From a phage, in NCBI GenBank assembly GCA_028909515.1, contig GCA_028909515.1_4811.1: DNA of 64,000 nt; one strand, 5' to 3'. Shown here piece after piece: positions 11,648 through 29,365 of this stretch. Each line of letters begins with the position of its first letter. The first letter of the stretch is position 1. The notes beneath the pieces were generated by a model. It did not search any database. It was not told where the DNA came from and saw only the letters and a list, made by a program, of their open reading frames with translations. The position numbers and the translations under genes are program-made.

Positions 11648-13069
11648 TTATTCCCCTTTCAACCAAGCTTCAAATGCTTCGTCAGTTGCTGCAGAATCCG
11701 CAGCGGCCTTTTGTTTTGCGACTACACGCTGTTTTTGACCGTGTTCAACGCCGCGCAGATAGTTATCCACCACGTCAAACTCAGCACCATCAACGCACTT
11801 CAAGCCTAACTTTTTAGCGCCATATTTCGCTACGGACTTGGAATCCATAGTTGCATGATCAAAGGCACCAACAACTTTAGACAGGCGCTGGTAGAGGCTA
11901 TTCTTACGAGCAGAATCAGCGTAGAAAGCAGCAACTGCTGAATCAGATGCCATTGAGTGTTCCCCTTTTGCTGGACCTGGCGACGCTTTCGCCGCTTTTG
12001 TCGGTTTGTCATCTTTTTCGACCGAAGCCCCCTTTACGTTGCTGTTTTGCAGGCCGCTAACCACATCTTCAGCTTTGTCGCAAGGTGATACATCTTCAGC
12101 CTTGACTTCAACTTCTTCTTCGTCTTTGACTTCGGCTTCAACTTCTTCTTCATCACCTACCGCGCCACCTTTCAGTTTTGCAATAAGCGCTTCGATTTGG
12201 CTGATCAATTGCGGAAGTTCGCCGCCAGCGTGAGATTCAGTTTCAACTTCAAACTTCTCTTCACCTTCTGGGGTTTCTTCTGCTTCTGCCTTGACTTCTG
12301 GATCAACCATTACTTCTTCACGATTTTCGGTTGAGTCCTTCTCTTCTGCTTTCACTTCAACTTCATCCTGATGAGCAGCTTCAGTGCTCTCTTCGTTCAG
12401 AAATTGTTCGAGCGCAGGGATCAGTGATTTCAGCTGTTCAACAGCATTATCACGCGCTTTACCTTTTAACGGTTTTGGCATGTCTAAATCCTCGTTGGAT
12501 GGTGTTACAGTCGTCAAACAAAGATGGTCAAAGCAACGACCATCCAGCACCCGTGCACCTGGTACTCGACCAACGTCCACGAGAGCAATGTGGTTGCCGC
12601 GAAGAGTTGTCTGCACCACTTCATACGGCTGCCCGTCAAACTCTCCAGACTGTATGATGAATTCACAGTCATAGCCCAAAGACAAGTCAACCTTTCCAGA
12701 ATCGATGGCCTTCTTCAGACGACGGCTAAACACTTTAAGGTCGCCGCGCATCCATGGCTTGTCATAATAAACATTGCCAGTCAGAACGCCATCAACGCCA
12801 TACTCTTCGGGTGCTGTGTTATCCTCATCACCTTCAAATCCAGAAAGCATTTCGTGATTGTCGATGAAAGGGATATTTTTGAATGAATCTATCGCTTCGG
12901 GGTCTTTCACCGCTGACTCAGGGCGATAGACTTTTACGATGCGATTCGGATCACCATCAAGACCAACTTGACCAGCAGAATAATCAAAAATGCCAAATGA
13001 CGAAATTGGACAACCCATAATCGTCAAGAATCCATTTTTGTCAATTTCGCGTGCCGTTTGCATTCGCAT
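11648..13069 (-). CDS. scaffold protein, possibly fused to an N-terminal prohead-protease-like domain
   Basis: 473 aa; globular N-terminal ~190 aa, then long acidic helical region ('EEVEAEVKDEEEVEVKAED'); positioned before decoration and capsid genes. Confidence 0.55.
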   Translation of the reverse strand: MRMQTAREIDKNGFLTIMGCPISSFGIFDYSAGQVGLDGDPNRIVKVYRPESAVKDPEAIDSFKNIPFIDNHEMLSGFEGDEDNTAPEEYGVDGVLTGNVYYDKPWMRGDLKVFSRRLKKAIDSGKVDLSLGYDCEFIIQSGEFDGQPYEVVQTTLRGNHIALVDVGRVPGARVLDGRCFDHLCLTTVTPSNEDLDMPKPLKGKARDNAVEQLKSLIPALEQFLNEESTEAAHQDEVEVKAEEKDSTENREEVMVDPEVKAEAEETPEGEEKFEVETESHAGGELPQLISQIEALIAKLKGGAVGDEEEVEAEVKDEEEVEVKAEDVSPCDKAEDVVSGLQNSNVKGASVEKDDKPTKAAKASPGPAKGEHSMASDSAVAAFYADSARKNSLYQRLSKVVGAFDHATMDSKSVAKYGAKKLGLKCVDGAEFDVVDNYLRGVEHGQKQRVVAKQKAAADSAATDEAFEAWLKGE

Positions 13070-15413: not shown

Positions 15414-17789
15414 TCAACCTTGCTTCGGTGAATTAGTAGGATTATTGAGTGCTCCATATGCTTGAGAGCAATCACCCTTCAACCACTCCTTGAATGAGTT
15501 TACATCCAATTCGTGAATTGAGTCGAAGCCGTTCCAACCGTTACCAAATGATGCTTGATAAGCTTCTTTCGCTTCTTCTGCTGAATCAAATCCAAGCATA
15601 CACTTGTGTTCATCAAATTCGCCAGAATAATTATCATTTTGGTTAATGATGAATACTTTAGGCGACTTCATATTTGGCCCAACAAAGCAGTCGACTTCAT
15701 CACCATCAGCACCCTTGGTGCCTTTGATGAATCCGTAGTGGTGCGGCATCTTAACTGCCCATTCACCATCAAGGCTGTTTCCCCTACGAATGCTGTTGCG
15801 AGGATTCTCAATACCAAGAATCATCCCGTGCAACTTCATCTTAGGTAGCGATGCGGCATCCATCTTCCCTACGTTGTGTCGCAAGTTGACGACATTTCCT
15901 TTTACGCTTGGAAGCGTGGACGGTTGCACCGACCTTGCATCTTTTTGAGGGTCAAAATCCACATCCTGACCTTCTTTAAGGTAATAGTCAGCAATACCCT
16001 CCAGACCTTCTTTCAGTTGCGTTAGGACATCAACGTGATGGCTTGATTCATCATCGGTATCATCCATGTTAATCTCAACTGGTGCTCTGTCAGGGTTTTC
16101 TGCCAACTCACCACGCGCGGCACCTTCCGGCATAATACCAGTTTCGCTGTAGAACTGGCCGCCCATCTTGACAACGTCAGCCTTAGCCTGTTCAATATCG
16201 GCCTTGCCTTGCAGAACTTCACCAGCAGACTTGCCAAGCAACGCCATATTCTCTGGAGACATCCCTGGGGTTTCTTCTGCCGCGTCTTCCGGCAAACGGT
16301 TGTAGCCACTGTTTTTGTCGTCCTTGATGCGGTCGCGCTCTTCATCAGGGGAGATGACGCCAGCATCAATGAGAGTCTTGCCAGTGTTCGCTCGTTTGTC
16401 GTTAATCTCTGCAAGCTGAGTAGCAGTAAGTGAACCAACTGGCTCCCATGCCACTTTAACGTCGACTTCAACACCTTCAGATTTCAAAAGGATTTTATAG
16501 TGACGGTCAAGAATCTTCGTCAAATCGTGCTGCTGACAAGTTTCCAATTCTTCGTGATAGCTGACCATTTCGAACTCACCAGTGGCGTTAAAGCCTTTAG
16601 GTGAAGTCCCTAACAGTTTTGTCGACGGAACTTTTGCGATTGCGGCCACCAACTGGTACTGGTTCATGATGATGCTGTCGAAGTCTGACAAGTTGATGTC
16701 AAACTGGTCCATCTCTTCTTTCTGACCAAGCACTTTTACCGCATAGTTGTCGCGGTACTTAATCCACATCATCAAACGTTCGGCAAACGACCGCTCATTG
16801 GCAATCGCCTTGTCAACGTCGGTCCGCAGCGTGGTTGTACGCTTAGACATCGCCAGCAATGGCGCTTCGTTAGCGGTACGTTCAGCGGCATAGATACGTT
16901 CATAAATCTGCTGAGTCAGAGGAATGCCGCCGTATATATAAGTCGGCTTGAGAATATCAGCTGGCTCATCGTTGCGCAAGATGATTAGGTGGCTGCGATG
17001 ATAACGCTGTCCACTGATCACCCAGTATTCTGGATCATAGAAATGCTGTGACGCAGGGTCTGCAGTGTTTTCAGACGTCAAGAATGGCATCATCCAATAA
17101 GGGTCAACCTGAATGATTCCCTTATAAGACCCCTTTGTCACACCATCGATGTTAAAAGGTTTGCTATAATATTCTGGGTCATCGCTGCGCACATCAAATA
17201 TGATGACACGGATGCCAAAAATATTCTTGAATCGTTCGGCTTCAACTAAGTGCTCTTTGATGTTAAATTCTTTATCAATTTGCTTCAGGCGTTCGCTTGC
17301 CTGCACAGACAATTCTGATTCAGAGCTTGATTTTACTTCCCAACCTTTACGTACTGCATCGCGGCCTACCATTGAGCAAGCCTTATTCACCAGCCAGTGC
17401 TGCGCGATAATTGCGCAAGCTTGATAGCCGATGAATGATTGTGACAAGTACCAGTTTTGCAACTGAATAGGGACTGTGTATGGATTCACCTGCCCTTCTG
17501 AACTGATGTTCTTCAAAGCATTATCCATAACTTTTTTGGATACGGTTGCTGAATCTACTGAGCGACCTTTGATGATTGCAACACCGTCTCCGTTGATATC
17601 AGGCTCATATAAAGGGAAGTCATCAACCGTTTTAAAGGTCGGTCGATTGCTTTCAGTCTTTTCCCAGCGTTGACCGCTGCCGCGCCTTTCAAGGCGTTCA
17701 AACGGTGCCAATGGGTCGCCTGGCGGCATCTCCGCTGGTTCGGCTTCTGGTTGCGTCTTCTCCCAGAGTTTTATGCCAAGAATTTTCAT
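15414..17789 (-). CDS. portal protein with C-terminal extension
   Basis: Large ORF immediately downstream of terminase; start set at 'MKILGIK' behind an AGGTGG RBS; last ~150 aa carry pyrophosphatase-like motifs (see findings). Confidence 0.7.
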   Translation of the reverse strand: MKILGIKLWEKTQPEAEPAEMPPGDPLAPFERLERRGSGQRWEKTESNRPTFKTVDDFPLYEPDINGDGVAIIKGRSVDSATVSKKVMDNALKNISSEGQVNPYTVPIQLQNWYLSQSFIGYQACAIIAQHWLVNKACSMVGRDAVRKGWEVKSSSESELSVQASERLKQIDKEFNIKEHLVEAERFKNIFGIRVIIFDVRSDDPEYYSKPFNIDGVTKGSYKGIIQVDPYWMMPFLTSENTADPASQHFYDPEYWVISGQRYHRSHLIILRNDEPADILKPTYIYGGIPLTQQIYERIYAAERTANEAPLLAMSKRTTTLRTDVDKAIANERSFAERLMMWIKYRDNYAVKVLGQKEEMDQFDINLSDFDSIIMNQYQLVAAIAKVPSTKLLGTSPKGFNATGEFEMVSYHEELETCQQHDLTKILDRHYKILLKSEGVEVDVKVAWEPVGSLTATQLAEINDKRANTGKTLIDAGVISPDEERDRIKDDKNSGYNRLPEDAAEETPGMSPENMALLGKSAGEVLQGKADIEQAKADVVKMGGQFYSETGIMPEGAARGELAENPDRAPVEINMDDTDDESSHHVDVLTQLKEGLEGIADYYLKEGQDVDFDPQKDARSVQPSTLPSVKGNVVNLRHNVGKMDAASLPKMKLHGMILGIENPRNSIRRGNSLDGEWAVKMPHHYGFIKGTKGADGDEVDCFVGPNMKSPKVFIINQNDNYSGEFDEHKCMLGFDSAEEAKEAYQASFGNGWNGFDSIHELDVNSFKEWLKGDCSQAYGALNNPTNSPKQG

Positions 17790-17951
17790 TGTTAACGCCA
17801 CCTGACAGTGAAAGGGAATCAATCTATATTATAAATATTCATGTGTTTGTAAGCAAATGATATGTATAGTAATCATAAATAGTTCATAAAATATTTTGCT
17901 TTTGTATCATTTTGAGTTATATTTTAGTTAACCAAACGAAAGGAGATTGAA

Positions 17952-18368
17952 ATGAGCACAACAATTGTATTTGTCGTCCTTCATCAAGGCGAAGTAGTAA
18001 ACGTATGCGAATATGAAGAGCTGGCAAAAGCCACTGCTGCGCGATATGAAGGTGCCACAGTTGACCCTTGGATTTTGGATGCGCGAAACGTGTTGCAGGC
18101 GACCATGGATGAATGGCTTTTAGGTCGCAAGGTGTATCCGGTTGAAAACATCGAATCCATTCAAGGCGAAACGGTATACTTTGAAGATGAATGCGTTCGC
18201 GGCATTGGTAAATTTATGGGATTGTGCCCATCTTCATCCAAAAATAAATTTTATCGTATTCAAGTTGAAGAAAACGATATGTTTGACAAAGTAACGCGCT
18301 CGATTGTTCCTGGCGGCGGCACTCCAATCTTTATGGCAGAATCAGACATCAAGGGGATTATCAAATGA
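17952..18368 (+). CDS. hypothetical protein
   Basis: 138-aa ORF with strong RBS AAAGGAG; opposite strand to the flanking terminase and portal genes. Confidence 0.55.
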   Translation: MSTTIVFVVLHQGEVVNVCEYEELAKATAARYEGATVDPWILDARNVLQATMDEWLLGRKVYPVENIESIQGETVYFEDECVRGIGKFMGLCPSSSKNKFYRIQVEENDMFDKVTRSIVPGGGTPIFMAESDIKGIIK

Positions 18369-18604
18369 GAACGTTAACCGAACTCGATGTTTTGAAAGAC
18401 GTTGCAGCCGCGCTAGGCGTAGAAGTATCCGAAAAGGCGACACTAGGTGCTTTGCGTCGGGATTTACTCGAAGCCGTTGACCGCAACGATTTTGACCGTA
18501 AGTGTATGCAAAAGAAGATTCGTCAGGCGGTAAGAGCGGGTAAGCGATTCCGTGCCAGGTCATTTGCTGCAAGAAAACTCGACCTTCAGCACGGAATGCT
18601 TTGA
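18365..18604 (+). CDS. hypothetical protein
   Basis: 79-aa basic ORF, 4-nt overlap with upstream gene. Confidence 0.5.
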   Translation: MRTLTELDVLKDVAAALGVEVSEKATLGALRRDLLEAVDRNDFDRKCMQKKIRQAVRAGKRFRARSFAARKLDLQHGML

Positions 18605-18607
18605 TTG

Positions 18608-20068
18608 TTAAAGGTTAGAGAAGAAGCCGGATGCTGCAACGATTGGTTTCATCAATGCCATGATTGCTGCGTCCGCTTTGTTAGGTGATTTAACTCCACG
18701 CTTTGCCATGTCCTTTTTGGATTCAACTTTGAACTTGCCAAGAACAGACGTATCTTTGCGCGGCGCTGACATCTCAAAAAGAAACGTCTCAATCTCTTCA
18801 GTAGTCCAAGCTGGAATTCCAAGTTCTGGTATGCCATCTGTGTCAATTGAAATCAACTCATCAGTCGGATATACGGCCTGCCCAGTCGCATACTCGTATG
18901 TCTTTCTGAATCTCTCTGCAATCTCAGTCCACTTTTGCGCTTTTATGTTTGCGAAATGGTCTTTATTGAGTATTTCAACGTGTGGTAGTTCAAGAAAAAC
19001 GTCATCAGGATCATCAACAGACCCTTGCGCGTTGAACGCATTAAATTCGATTCTTGGAAATGATGGATTTTCATGTATCGCATACTCGTTTAGTTCATCA
19101 AATTTTGAACCAGCAAAAGCGCCGACACCGATGGCGTCATAAGTTATAGAAGCGCCAAATGTAAGCGCATCTTTCCAAACTCCGCTTGCCGATTTCAACA
19201 ATTCATCTTCCAGACCTTCCCATGTCTTGATGCCGCGCAATACGTTTCCTGTAACGAATGCAGTGGCGTTAAGGTCGTCGCCATCGTCCGCTACGTCAAA
19301 GCCTATACGGTTAGACCCTGACAAACTCCAACCCAGCGTAGGGTGTTTGTGGAGGTTAAGCGCGGCCTTAACGAATGCGCGGTTGATTACAGATTTATCG
19401 CCGCCAGTCTTCGGCACGCCGCCATAAACGTGCTCTGCCTTTTTCGGGTCACGCTCGTACATGCCTGCAATAACGTCCAGCATTGTTTGCGACAAGAATG
19501 GATTGTCTTGCCAGTTTATCTTTTTGACAATGGCATTCTTCGGCGGTCGCATGACAAAGTTTTGATAGACGAAATCGGCCTCTTCATCAGGGTTAAAGAT
19601 AATCCATATTTCGGACCCTTCTTTACGGATTGTCGGCTCAATAATGTCCCACTGTTCTTCAGTAAGCGCGTGCGCTTCTTCCAGCCAAAGAACATCAACG
19701 CCTTCTGTTGATTTGATTTCATCAACGTTACGTGCGATACCATAAAATAGAAATTCAGATTTAGTTCTTTTGTGTTCGATAGAGTTCTTTAATAAATTGA
19801 ACTCATCTTTAAAATCAGAAATCTCTATTTTGTCTTTTAATAGAGTATATACAGATTCAGAAATCTTGTTCTGGAATTGTCGAACGCAAAGGAATTTTAA
19901 TTTGAAGTTTGCCGCCAAATAAATAGCAAAACCAGCGGCATCGTGCGATTTGGAAGATGCACGACCGCCGTATATTACTTTGTATCGCGCTTTTGTCTTC
20001 CAGACTTCTTTTAAAGCAGGATTCAACTGGTACATGAATTTCCAATTATGTGTTAATATTTTATTCAT
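18608..20068 (-). CDS. terminase large subunit
   Basis: 486 aa; N-terminal ATPase region with Walker A-like 'YGGRASSKSHDAAGF' and Walker B-like 'DVLWLEEAHAL'; C-terminal nuclease-like region; precedes portal. Confidence 0.8.
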   Translation of the reverse strand: MNKILTHNWKFMYQLNPALKEVWKTKARYKVIYGGRASSKSHDAAGFAIYLAANFKLKFLCVRQFQNKISESVYTLLKDKIEISDFKDEFNLLKNSIEHKRTKSEFLFYGIARNVDEIKSTEGVDVLWLEEAHALTEEQWDIIEPTIRKEGSEIWIIFNPDEEADFVYQNFVMRPPKNAIVKKINWQDNPFLSQTMLDVIAGMYERDPKKAEHVYGGVPKTGGDKSVINRAFVKAALNLHKHPTLGWSLSGSNRIGFDVADDGDDLNATAFVTGNVLRGIKTWEGLEDELLKSASGVWKDALTFGASITYDAIGVGAFAGSKFDELNEYAIHENPSFPRIEFNAFNAQGSVDDPDDVFLELPHVEILNKDHFANIKAQKWTEIAERFRKTYEYATGQAVYPTDELISIDTDGIPELGIPAWTTEEIETFLFEMSAPRKDTSVLGKFKVESKKDMAKRGVKSPNKADAAIMALMKPIVAASGFFSNL

Positions 20069-20078
20069 ATTATAGTTT

Positions 20079-20090
20079 GCTTGTACAAGC
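20079..20090. promoter_or_regulatory. perfect 12-bp palindrome GCTTGTACAAGC upstream of terminase start
   Basis: Read directly; 11 bp from the terminase ATG. Confidence 0.4.
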
Positions 20091-20143
20091 TATATCAAGT
20101 AAAATTATGATTCCAGCTTAGTAGTGGATAAAGGGTGATCTTT

Positions 20144-20171
20144 CGGCCAGATTTTTTCTGGCCATTTTTTT
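20144..20171 (+). terminator. rho-independent terminator-like hairpin
   Basis: GGCCAGA-tttttt-TCTGGCC followed by ATTTTTTT. Confidence 0.5.
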
Positions 20172-20190
20172 GATTAAAATTCACAAAAAG

Positions 20191-20218
20191 TTTGCCTTTC
20201 TGAAACTCTGCGTTATAA
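20191..20218 (+). promoter_or_regulatory. sigma70-like promoter
   Basis: TTGCCT-N16-TATAAT, about 28 bp upstream of 20246. Confidence 0.55.
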
Positions 20219-20245
20219 TCATATTAACTCAAAACCGGAGGTAAT

Positions 20246-28414: not shown

Positions 28415-28888
28415 CTAGTGGCGGGAGAATTGCTCGCCTTCTTTGGCCGCCTCTCCAAAATCCTTGTAGAAATCGTCCATAGAACGGCCCATTTTACTAT
28501 TGCCGTTTTCATCAATCATCGTGATGCCGTAGATGATATTCAGTTCACGAATAGCATTAAGCTTGGCTGACGCCGCGACTTCTGGATCACGCACAAGCTT
28601 GACCAAATTGTGAATTGCACCTTTTACGCTCCACAAATCCTTGAGTGGCATCTCTTCCATACGCTTTTTGAAGCGCATTTTGTAGTATGGGTTGCGTTGC
28701 GCGCAAAGGATTCGCTGGCCAGTGTAGTTATCCGTTGCAACTTCCATTCCAAATACTAGTGCAAAAGCTGCGCGCATGTCATGGCCCTGAATAACAAGGT
28801 CAATGAACTCATCGAATAAAGCCTGATTGTGCTCTGCAAATCGCGGGTCTTCAAAGTCTTCAGGCATCGCTACATAATCTTGACTCAT
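28415..28888 (-). CDS. hypothetical protein
   Basis: Start set at 'MSQDYVAM'; three ATAGTGCAAAT-type copies lie at or just upstream of the start. Confidence 0.5.
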   Translation of the reverse strand: MSQDYVAMPEDFEDPRFAEHNQALFDEFIDLVIQGHDMRAAFALVFGMEVATDNYTGQRILCAQRNPYYKMRFKKRMEEMPLKDLWSVKGAIHNLVKLVRDPEVAASAKLNAIRELNIIYGITMIDENGNSKMGRSMDDFYKDFGEAAKEGEQFSRH

Positions 28889-29029
28889 AGTGCAAAATCC
28901 CATAGTGCAAATTAATAGTGTGAATTATACAATGGATGGACATTATATTCAAGTGCAGATTGATGTTCATTATGGCTATAAACGTACACAAATCATAGTG
29001 CTGATAGAGTTGCGGACCGTGGTGCGTGG

Positions 29030-29365
29030 TGTACTGTTTGATACGTATAAAAGAAATCCATCCCTTTCGCCGCTTGCTATGCAAATCAATGACTTAGCCG
29101 CTGCTGGCTGGTTGAAGCGTATCATGACGTATCATCCGTATTGCCGCAAGTCTTTGTTTTTACTTATATCTTACGGATGATACGTATAAATATAAGTTTA
29201 GTATAAGTATGAGGATGTAGAAAAAAATTAATTTAAATTAATTCAAAATGGAGTTAATTAATTTTCTGGAATTCTATATATATTATGTTTGCACCCGTAT
29301 CATCCGTATCAGCGTATTTTTCCTTATAAATCAATAGCCCAATGATACGTCATGATACGTATGAA
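29030..29365. repeat. iteron-flanked AT-rich element, copy 2
   Basis: TACGGATGATACG-type iterons at about 29117-29140 (inverted), 29171-29187, 29294-29314 (inverted), 29342-29362 around an AT-rich core sharing 'AAAAAAATTAATTTAAATTAATT' and 'GAATTCTATATA' with copy 1. Confidence 0.7.

What the first reader, a model, noticed from the sequence alone, without database searches (positions are those of the whole stretch)
17952..18604. Two opposite-strand genes wedged between terminase and portal
Terminase and portal are normally adjacent and co-oriented. Here two plus-strand genes (138 and 79 aa, strong AAAGGAG RBS on the first) sit between them, running antisense to the late operon and ending 3 nt from the terminase stop with no room for a terminator. 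Their transcription would collide with late transcription, suggesting early expression or regulatory antisense interplay. A small terminase candidate is otherwise not evident next to the large subunit.
Basis: inference. Interest (0 to 1): 0.4.

Follow-up and report, generated by a model that had tools for sequence, protein, structure and literature searches.

The report
Conserved two-gene cassette between terminase and portal
Two small, real, co-translated phage genes of unknown function sit backwards between the DNA-packaging enzyme and portal genes; this layout is inherited across a whole phage lineage, and neither gene is the missing small terminase, which lies about 8 kb away.

Summary
ORF138 (17952-18368, +) and ORF79 (18365-18604, +) lie between portal (15414-17789, -) and TerL (18608-20035, -) and end 3 nt from the TerL stop. 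The window is a Wifcevirus (E. coli myovirus, 92-97% identical to published genomes). All 29 related records carry both genes, annotated 'hypothetical'. Both are under purifying selection (pN/pS 0.08 and 0.055).

The layout is not a local oddity. Pbunavirus E217 and 14-1 have 13-14 opposite-strand genes in the same slot, Pantoea phage Kyle has 5, and a metagenomic relative has 4. ORF138 is the ortholog of E217 gp18 (phrog_5124), always the first gene next to the portal. ORF79 occurs only in the enterobacterial branch.

The small-terminase idea is refuted. The ortholog of the solved E217 TerS (PDB 7UXE) is at 28415-28888 (-), E = 6e-34.

Neither protein matches any Pfam, PDB or defence family. 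ORF138 is predicted as a small alpha/beta domain plus an SH3-like barrel. ORF79 is predicted as a four-helix protein with a basic tail. Neither was detected by mass spectrometry of phage preparations.

They have their own conserved sigma-70-type promoter, back-to-back with the portal promoter. Early or regulatory expression is plausible by analogy with the Pbunavirus 'early region' but is untested. Ordinary, low interest.

The parts
17952..18368 (+). ORF138, a 138-aa protein. It is a member of the Pbunavirus gp18-like family (phrog_5124). Predicted fold: N-terminal beta-beta-alpha-beta domain, linker helix, then a C-terminal SH3-like beta-barrel.
   Evidence: - ORF.
- Selection: pN/pS 0.08.
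- Family: phrog_5124 at 3.5e-4, and E217 gp18 hits the same PHROG at 1e-87.
- Homology to E217 gp18: hhalign probability 89%, E = 2.4e-6 over 115 columns; BLASTP 2e-5 to E217 gp18 and 4e-9 to Kyle gp26.
18365..18604 (+). ORF79, a 79-aa protein. Predicted as four helices with a conserved AAALDVE...AID...C motif and an Arg/Lys-rich C-terminal third. Its start overlaps the ORF138 stop (ATGA).
   Evidence: - ORF.
- Selection: pN/pS 0.055.
- Distribution: only 4 clusters among 1.84 billion representatives. Homologs are in Kyle (gp24), L003 and L013. None was found among the E217 products tested, gp1-19 and gp77-94.
- Structure: AF2 pLDDT 78.5.
- No fold, PDB or Pfam match.
17896..17923 (+). Proximal sigma-70-type promoter of the ORF138-ORF79 unit: TTGCTT (17896-17901), 16-nt spacer, TATATT (17918-17923). 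The predicted transcription start is near 17930.
   Evidence: Both hexamers are conserved in L003 while the spacer differs. The same TTTGCYT-N16/17-TATAAT class recurs upstream of at least 10 other units. This is a consensus match only, not experimental.
17939..17945 (+). AAAGGAG ribosome-binding site, 6 nt upstream of the ORF138 ATG.
   Evidence: Read directly from the sequence. Annotated as an RBS in phage Mansfield.
17828..17856 (-). Divergent sigma-70-type promoter of the portal / head operon: TTGCTT (17856-17851), 17-nt spacer, TATAAT (17833-17828). It lies back-to-back with the ORF138 promoter.
   Evidence: Scans. Conserved in L003. Phage 14-1 carries an annotated sigma-70 promoter at the equivalent place.
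17802..17830 (+). Distal promoter-like site CTGACA-17-TATATT. Its -10 hexamer overlaps the portal promoter's -10 by 3 bp. It also overlaps the portal 5' UTR and RBS, so its conservation is ambiguous.
18547..18597 (+). Hairpin inside the 3' end of ORF79: 9-bp plus 5-bp stems, a 19-nt loop, then GCUUUGAUUGUU. It is a candidate weak terminator or 3'-end stabiliser for the plus-strand mRNA.
   Evidence: MFE is -25.2 kcal/mol for 18536-18618, z = -2.0. The stems are invariant and all substitutions fall in the loop in six relatives. E217 has a strong terminator embedded in the last cassette gene at the same junction. Inconclusive.
18605..18607 (.). 3-nt spacer (TTG) between the convergent stop codons of ORF79 and TerL.
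   Evidence: Relatives have a 4-12 nt overlap at this junction instead.
18608..20035 (-). Terminase large subunit (475 aa from the start used in relatives). It is a lone minus-strand gene flanked by plus-strand genes.
   Evidence: PF04466 at 3e-37. 63% identical to E217 TerL. Annotations.
20069..20098 (-). TerL promoter TTGATA-18-TATAAT (11 of 12 consensus positions).
   Evidence: Both hexamers are conserved in L003.
20145..20163 (+). First canonical plus-strand intrinsic terminator downstream of ORF79 (GGCCAGA-TTTTT-TCTGGCC followed by a T-run). It lies beyond the TerL start codon and promoter.
   Evidence: Annotated in phage WFC. Conserved in L003 with a compensatory A-T to G-C pair.
15414..17789 (-). 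Portal protein with a C-terminal InPase domain. It is the first gene of the structural operon.
   Evidence: PF06381 at 4.5e-88 and PF18823 at 4.4e-46. 52% identical to E217 gp19.
28415..28888 (-). Small terminase subunit (157 aa), ortholog of E217 gp78.
   Evidence: tblastn 1.9e-36. phmmer against PDB 7UXE 'Small terminase': 6.1e-34, residues 6-151. E217 gp78 is 7UXE. PHROGs files the window protein under phrog_4783, 'unknown function'.

Best explanation
The interval holds two genuine, translationally coupled protein genes. Together they form the minimal version of an opposite-strand cassette that separates the portal and large-terminase genes throughout the Pbunavirus / Kylevirus / Wifcevirus group of myoviruses.

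Shown:
- The pair has its own sigma-70-type promoter (TTGCTT-16-TATATT, 17896-17923), placed back-to-back with the portal promoter.
- It has a strong RBS and an ATGA stop/start overlap.
- ORF138 is the ortholog of the first cassette gene of Pbunavirus (E217 gp18 / 14-1 gp17).
- ORF79 is an enterobacterial-branch addition.
- The products are not the small terminase, which is encoded at 28415-28888(-).
- Neither product was among the proteins detected by mass spectrometry of phage preparations.

Inferred:
- Host RNA polymerase transcribes the pair independently of the head operon, probably from early in infection.
- The two products act together as small intracellular accessory or regulatory proteins. 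The SH3-like barrel of ORF138 and the helical, basic-tailed ORF79 suggest nucleic-acid or protein binding, in the manner of the host-takeover proteins found in the same block of Pbunavirus.
- The plus-strand mRNA most likely ends at the hairpin embedded in the ORF79 3' end or by Rho action shortly inside antisense TerL. Any read-through stops at the conserved terminator at 20145-20163.
For: - Real genes: ORFs and signals; purifying selection; present in 29 of 29 Wifcevirus records at 95-99% amino-acid identity.
- Lineage-wide layout: E217 has TerL, then 13 opposite-strand genes, then portal. Phage 14-1 has 14, Kyle has 5, L003 has 4, and L013 has the same gene order.
- ORF138 equals gp18: plus its constant position next to the portal.
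- ORF79 family.
- Promoters: hexamers conserved while spacers vary in L003; the promoter family is shown.
- Not TerS. The TerL/TerS separation is published for E217 and Banzai.
- Not detected in particles: vB_Eco4M-7_34/_35 and ECML-117 gp32/gp33 are absent from the MS tables. E217 gp18 is not mentioned in the paper that built models of 19 E217 virion gene products.
- Early / host-takeover analogy: 14-1 gp11 (YIP) and gp12 (RNAP-alpha binder, transcription inhibitor) lie in this block and are described as part of the 'early genome region'.
- Folds.
Against: - There are no expression data for any Wifcevirus.
- The 'early' label for the Pbunavirus block is largely positional in the papers read.
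- The ORF138 promoter is of the same class as the portal, protease and replication-gene promoters, so timing cannot be inferred from sequence.
- The characterised Pbunavirus early proteins have no detectable homolog in the window. E217 gp13, the counterpart of 14-1 gp12, gave no significant tblastn hit, so the functional analogy does not rest on homology.
- Tight synteny with portal and TerL across genera would also fit a role in head assembly or packaging.
- Absence from the MS tables is weak negative evidence for small proteins.
Confidence: 0.6

Rival explanations
1. One or both products are packaging or head-assembly accessories. Examples would be a second DNA-recognition subunit, a portal or TerL chaperone, or, the small terminase itself. 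On this view they stay next to portal and TerL because they work with them.
For: - Position between portal and TerL is conserved in three genera.
- ORF79 is small, helical and basic, as DNA-binding proteins often are.
- E217 TerS showed no appreciable DNA binding in vitro (PMC9611059), which leaves room for an additional specificity factor.
Against: - A bona fide TerS ortholog exists elsewhere.
- There is no similarity to any TerS, HNH or packaging family.
- ORF79 was not found in Pbunavirus, although its TerL and portal are 63% and 52% identical to those of the window.
- The slot gains and loses unrelated genes (protease, DUF2786/DUF7168, methyltransferase, YIP), as accessory regions do.
- The genes are on the strand opposite to the morphogenesis genes.
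Confidence: 0.15
2. The important product is the transcript. Plus-strand transcription from the ORF138 promoter runs unterminated through the whole TerL gene in antisense to the terminator at 20145-20163. TerL transcription likewise runs antisense through ORF79/ORF138 into the portal. Transcriptional interference or RNA duplex formation would then set the timing or level of terminase relative to the cassette.
For: - Only 3 nt separate the convergent stops.
- No canonical plus-strand terminator lies between 18605 and 20145, and none lies on the minus strand between 18608 and 17790.
- The terminator at 20145-20163 lies outside the TerL transcript and upstream of the next plus-strand promoter in this genome. 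It is conserved with a compensatory pair in L003.
- TerL has a near-consensus host-type promoter that would otherwise fire from the start of infection.
Against: - Untranslated antisense RNA in E. coli is normally cut short by Rho (established knowledge).
- A conserved hairpin followed by a U-rich stretch sits at the ORF79 3' end.
- E217 ends its cassette with a strong embedded terminator at the junction, so long antisense read-through is not a lineage feature.
- In Mansfield, L004 and L003 the 20145-20163 hairpin is followed directly by the RBS of a 76-aa gene. It may therefore belong to that gene's leader rather than serve the cassette.
- Both ORFs are clearly selected as proteins.
Confidence: 0.15
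3. The pair is an anti-defence or host-modulating 'moron' cassette. It would have no role in the core lytic programme and would be kept because it counters host immunity.
For: - It sits in a slot whose gene content varies between genera.
- Pbunavirus genomes carry several small anti-defence genes, and the same block holds host-manipulating proteins.
- Wifceviruses are reported as considerably resistant to restriction in K-12 (PMC11990801).
Against: - These two genes are the conserved core of the slot, not its variable part.
- GC content is ordinary (0.44 and 0.50, against 0.46 for the window).
- There are no homologs outside this phage lineage, whereas anti-defence genes often spread horizontally.
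- No published anti-defence protein was matched, though no anti-defence library was available to search.
Confidence: 0.1

Closest known systems
Opposite-strand gene block between TerL and portal of Pbunavirus (E217 gp6-gp18; 14-1 gp04-gp17, the published 'early genome region')
   Same: - It occupies the same place and orientation and converges on the TerL stop.
- A divergent sigma-70-type promoter region is shared with the portal.
- The first gene is homologous (ORF138 ~ E217 gp18 / 14-1 gp17, phrog_5124).
- TerS is encoded elsewhere in both.
   Different: - The window has 2 genes instead of 13-14.
- No homolog of the characterised members was detected. E217 gp13, the counterpart of 14-1 gp12, gave nothing by tblastn, and 14-1 gp11 was not tested.
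- ORF79 has no detectable counterpart among the E217 products tested.
- E217 ends the block with a strong embedded intrinsic terminator. The window has only a weaker hairpin.
Kylevirus (Pantoea phage Kyle) genes 26-22 and the metagenomic relatives L003 and L013
   Same: - Same slot.
- The gene order starts with an ORF138 homolog and includes an ORF79 homolog (35% and 66% identity).
   Different: Those phages insert a lipobox-bearing trypsin-like protease between the two genes. They add one to three further genes, including a DUF2786/DUF7168 protein (= E217 gp10) that abuts TerL.
Small terminase of E217 (PDB 7UXE), decameric TerS
   Same: Only the context. It is a small protein from the same lineage whose gene is not adjacent to TerL.
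   Different: ORF138 and ORF79 show no sequence or fold similarity to it. The true ortholog is window 28415-28888(-).
SH3-like barrel nucleic-acid or protein-binding modules (Sm/LSm, Tudor, KOW of NusG/Spt5, PsaE)
   Different: - There is no sequence similarity and no family-specific motif.
- The N-terminal domain is unmatched.
- The resemblance is at fold level only and does not define a function.

Membership tests
Phage small terminase (TerS) | Sequence or profile similarity to a known TerS family or a solved TerS | tested here: not met
   - Pfam, PHROGs and NCBIfam give no TerS hit for either ORF.
- Profiles against PDB sequences give nothing.
- The only TerS match in the window is 28415-28888(-) to 7UXE.
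Phage small terminase (TerS) | TerS protomer architecture: N-terminal HTH, helical oligomerisation core, about 15-21 kDa (as reviewed in PMC9611059) | tested here: not met
   - ORF138 is predicted as mostly beta: an alpha/beta domain plus an SH3-like barrel.
- ORF79 is helical but only about 9 kDa and has no structural neighbour in the PDB.
Phage small terminase (TerS) | The role is unfilled elsewhere in the genome | tested here: not met
   An ortholog of E217 gp78 is present. The TerL/TerS separation is published for this lineage.
Pbunavirus gp18-like family (phrog_5124) | Significant profile similarity over most of the length | tested here: met
   - ORF138 against phrog_5124: 3.5e-4.
- E217 gp18 against phrog_5124: 1e-87.
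- hhalign of the ORF138 family against E217 gp18: probability 89%, E = 2.4e-6, 115 columns.
- A profile search recovers the Pbunavirus members P0013, P0015 and P0016 at 1e-30 to 1e-38.
- The similarity is weak in pairwise terms (26% identity).
Pbunavirus gp18-like family (phrog_5124) | Conserved position: first gene of the opposite-strand block, divergent from the portal | tested here: met
   Seen in the window, E217, 14-1, Kyle, L003, L004 and L013.
Early (host-RNA-polymerase-transcribed) phage gene class | Own sigma-70-type promoter | tested here: inconclusive
   A conserved TTGCTT-16-TATATT is present. The same class precedes structural and replication genes, so it does not discriminate temporal class.
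Early (host-RNA-polymerase-transcribed) phage gene class | Transcript present in the first minutes of infection | not testable with these tools
   No Wifcevirus transcriptome was found. The 14-1 ONT-cappable-seq supplementary tables are not held.
Virion structural proteins | Detected in purified particles | tested here: not met
   Published MS tables of vB_Eco4M-7 (33 proteins) and ECML-117 (28 proteins) list neither product. This rests on literature evidence, not on a computation made here.

The most novel reading that the evidence does not exclude
The cassette and TerL form a deliberately unterminated convergent pair. Transcription from the ORF138 promoter crosses the entire TerL gene in antisense and stops only at the conserved terminator at 20145-20163. 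This would hold back terminase expression from its near-consensus host-type promoter until the cassette promoter is shut off. It would be an antisense timer for DNA packaging in an unusually fast-replicating phage.
Probability: 0.1. Interest if true: 0.5.

Novelty: already known. Interest (0 to 1): 0.15.

Why it matters
It matters mainly as housekeeping.
- **Layout.** The apparent anomaly is an inherited genome layout, not a local event.
- **Small terminase.** It places the small terminase of Wifcevirus phages at 28415-28888(-). None of the Wifcevirus annotation tables viewed names a small terminase, and Bas100 labels this gene 'hypothetical'. PHROGs files it under 'unknown function'.
- **Core of the cassette.** ORF138 (gp18-like) is shared with Pbunavirus and ORF79 with Kylevirus. 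These two genes are all that remains of the TerL-portal slot in Wifcevirus.

Wifceviruses are now available on E. coli K-12 derivatives (BASEL Bas98-101), and a synthetic-genome route exists for vB_Eco4M-7. The two genes are therefore cheap targets for deletion and interaction studies. No result here suggests a new kind of system.

Tried and rejected
- **TerS hypothesis:** rejected. The ortholog is elsewhere and there is no TerS similarity.
- **Function by homology:** nothing significant for either ORF in Pfam, NCBIfam, PADLOC or PDB sequence searches. PHROGs gave only 'unknown function' families. The Pfam Ubiquitin_TPR1 hit of ORF79 (E = 0.009, 16 bits against a cutoff of 27) was dismissed as noise.
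- **Function by fold:**
  - Foldseek of ORF79 against the PDB gave no hit with E below 6.
  - BFVD returned only the protein's own family.
  - The afdb50 library was unavailable.
- **ORF79 homolog in Pbunavirus:** hhalign against E217 gp1-19 and gp77-94 found none. The weak BLASTP hit to E217 gp12 (E = 0.013 in a tiny database) was not confirmed.
- **Recent horizontal acquisition:** no support, because the GC content is ordinary.
- **Temporal class from promoters:** the promoter type is shared by all functional classes, so this led nowhere.
- **Expression data:** the 14-1 and BAPR transcriptome papers gave no gene-level data on the block. The supplementary tables are not held.
- **Minus-strand terminator after TerL:** none was found, even with a permissive scan.

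Full report
**What the window is.** The 6-kb stretch around the finding is 92-97% identical to 29 published genomes of the genus Wifcevirus. These are E. coli / Shigella myoviruses of 67-72 kb, such as SP13, F13, vB_Eco4M-7, WFC, ECML-117 and Mansfield. The window is the reverse complement of about 64 kb of such a genome. Window 20035-1 corresponds to Bas100 positions 1-20036, and window 64000-38698 to Bas100 24712-50000.

**Checking the observation.** ORF138 (17952-18368) and ORF79 (18365-18604) are on the plus strand, between the portal and the large terminase, both on the minus strand.
- Using the start codons of close relatives, the portal is 15414-17789 and TerL is 18608-20035.
- AAAGGAG lies at 17939-17945.
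- The two ORFs overlap as ATGA.
- The ORF79 stop is 3 nt from the TerL stop.
- Every Wifcevirus record carries both genes, annotated 'hypothetical protein', at 95-99% amino-acid identity.
- Pooled pN/pS against six relatives is 0.08 for ORF138 and 0.055 for ORF79. In the 76-aa antisense ORF all differences are non-synonymous.

The genes are real and the description is accurate.

**The layout is inherited.** Wifceviruses are distant relatives of Pbunavirus (PMC11990801). The same slot is occupied in every relative examined:
- In Pseudomonas phage E217, TerL (gp5) is followed by 13 opposite-strand genes (gp6-gp18) and then the portal (gp19). gp6 overlaps the TerL stop by 4 nt.
- Phage 14-1 has 14 such genes, and a sigma-70 promoter is annotated before its portal.
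- Pantoea phage Kyle (Kylevirus) has five, with a 4-nt overlap at TerL.
- A 72.5-kb metagenomic relative (L003) has four. A 4.3-kb contig (L013) shows the same gene order.

The window therefore holds the shortest known version of a lineage-wide cassette.

TerL is also a lone minus-strand gene. On its other side the genes run on the plus strand again: small ORFs and a tail fibre from 20246 onward.

**Who the two proteins are.**
- *ORF138.* It matches phrog_5124 weakly (3.5e-4), and E217 gp18 matches the same family at 1e-87. hhalign of the ORF138 family against E217 gp18 gives probability 89% and E = 2.4e-6 over 115 columns. BLASTP in a small database gives 4e-9 to Kyle gp26 and 2e-5 to E217 gp18. 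A profile search recovers the Pbunavirus proteins. In every genome this gene is the first of the cassette, next to the portal.
- *ORF79.* It has homologs in L003 (66% identity), Kyle gp24 (35%), L013 and three metagenomic clusters. An exhaustive HMMER scan of 1.84 billion representatives found only four clusters. No counterpart was found among E217 gp1-19 and gp77-94.
- *Other slot genes.* L003 and Kyle additionally carry a lipobox trypsin-like protease between the two genes. They also carry a DUF2786/DUF7168 protein (= E217 gp10) abutting TerL. The window has neither between portal and TerL.

**Not the small terminase.** The E217 TerS gene is known to lie about 58 kb from TerL (PMC9611059), and the same is reported for phage Banzai.
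- E217 gp78 is the protein of PDB entry 7UXE.
- Its ortholog in the window is 28415-28888 on the minus strand: tblastn 1.9e-36 and phmmer against 7UXE 6.1e-34 over residues 6-151.
- PHROGs files this protein under 'unknown function' (phrog_4783). That probably explains why none of the Wifcevirus annotation tables viewed names a TerS.
- Neither ORF138 nor ORF79 resembles any TerS by sequence or fold.

**Predicted structures.**
- *ORF79* (single sequence, pLDDT 78.5). It is four helices with a basic C-terminal third and has no structural neighbour.
- Pfam, NCBIfam, PADLOC and PDB-sequence searches are empty.

At most, these folds suggest nucleic-acid or protein binding.

**Not structural, as far as published data go.** The mass-spectrometry tables for vB_Eco4M-7 (33 proteins) and ECML-117 (28 proteins) do not include the two products, which are vB_Eco4M-7_34/_35 and PI34_gp32/gp33.

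**Transcription signals.**
- *Portal-ORF138 intergenic region.* The 162-bp region is almost invariant within the genus.
- *Conservation in L003.* The ORF138 and ORF79 homologs of L003 are 54-66% identical. There the hexamers are kept while the spacers vary.
- *Portal promoter.* It reads TTGCTT-17-TATAAT on the minus strand (17856-17828).
- *ORF138 promoter.* It reads TTGCTT-16-TATATT on the plus strand (17896-17923).
- *Promoter class.* The same TTTGCYT-N16/17-TATAAT class precedes at least ten other units of every functional class. The promoter type therefore says 'host RNA polymerase' but not 'early'.
- *TerL promoter.* TerL has its own 11-of-12 promoter (20098-20069), conserved in L003.
- *Plus strand, hairpin.* A conserved hairpin lies inside the ORF79 3' end (18547-18597). 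The 83-nt stretch containing it folds at -25.2 kcal/mol, z = -2.0, and substitutions fall only in the loop.
- *Plus strand, terminator.* The first canonical terminator is at 20145-20163, beyond TerL. It is conserved with a compensatory pair in L003.
- *E217 comparison.* E217 closes its cassette with a strong terminator embedded in gp6 at the junction.
- *Minus strand.* No terminator follows TerL on the minus strand. TerL transcripts may therefore read through the cassette in antisense into the portal.

**Interpretation.** The best-supported reading has four parts:
- The pair is a conserved, co-translated pair of non-structural proteins.
- It is transcribed by host polymerase from its own promoter.
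- It is the remnant core of a cassette that in Pbunavirus is called the 'early genome region'. There the block contains host-takeover proteins: 14-1 gp11 (YIP) and gp12, a transcription inhibitor that binds RNAP alpha.
- The biochemical function is unknown.

A packaging or assembly accessory role, an antisense effect on TerL, and an anti-defence role remain possible at lower probability. None can be settled without expression data and mutants.

**Verdict.** The genes and the arrangement are already present and annotated in published genomes. The layout is a lineage trait. The most specific hypothesis attached to it, a small terminase, is refuted. Interest is low.

Noticed in passing
window 28415-28888 (-): Ortholog of the solved E217 small terminase (7UXE), E = 6e-34. 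It is 8.4 kb from TerL on the same strand. Bas100 annotates it as 'hypothetical', and no TerS is named in the other Wifcevirus tables viewed. PHROGs files it as phrog_4783, 'unknown function'.
   Followed up: yes
window 28886-29309: A cluster of short repeats lies at and upstream of the TerS start. ACGTATCATCCGTA occurs three times (29127-29140, inverted at 29172-29185, direct at 29296-29309). TGATACGTATAAA occurs twice, and CATAGTGCAAA occurs twice (28886-28911). It could be an operator, iteron or pac-like site.
   Followed up: no
window 15414-17789 (-), C-terminal ~125 residues: The portal protein carries a C-terminal InPase domain (PF18823, 4.4e-46). That domain is otherwise typical of polyvalent phage proteins. 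The Pbunavirus E217 portal aligns over nearly its full length (tblastn).
   Followed up: no
window 20036-20245; L002 8027-8195; L003 11500-11645: The plus-strand terminator at 20145-20163 is conserved, with a compensatory pair in L003. In Mansfield, L004 and L003 it is followed immediately by the RBS and ATG of a 76-aa gene that is missing from this window and from WFC. That protein (vB_Eco4M-7_32, 7.8 kDa) scored highly in particle mass spectrometry. Where that gene's promoter lies is unclear.
   Followed up: partly
window, upstream of genes ending or starting at 13069, 17789, 17952, 20246, 33669, 34926, 41283, 46288 and others: A promoter family TTTGCYT-N16/17-TATAAT/TATACT/TATATT recurs in front of structural, replication and small-ORF units alike. 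The TerL and TerS promoters instead share TTGAWW -35 boxes with perfect TATAAT.
   Followed up: partly
L003 8411-9019; L008 6414-6959; L013 1857-2417: Relatives carry a trypsin-like protease (PF13365) with a lipoprotein signal (LALAGCS) between the ORF138 and ORF79 homologs. This is an unusual gene for this position in a virulent phage.
   Followed up: no
window 17802-17833: A plus-strand promoter-like site (CTGACA-17-TATATT) has its -10 hexamer overlapping by 3 bp the -10 of the minus-strand portal promoter. This could make the two mutually exclusive. It also overlaps the portal 5' UTR, so its conservation is uninformative.
   Followed up: partly
L004 8001-8471: The ORF138 homolog in this metagenomic contig has a frameshifted, extended C-terminus (156 aa). 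This is either an assembly error or a natural variant.
   Followed up: no
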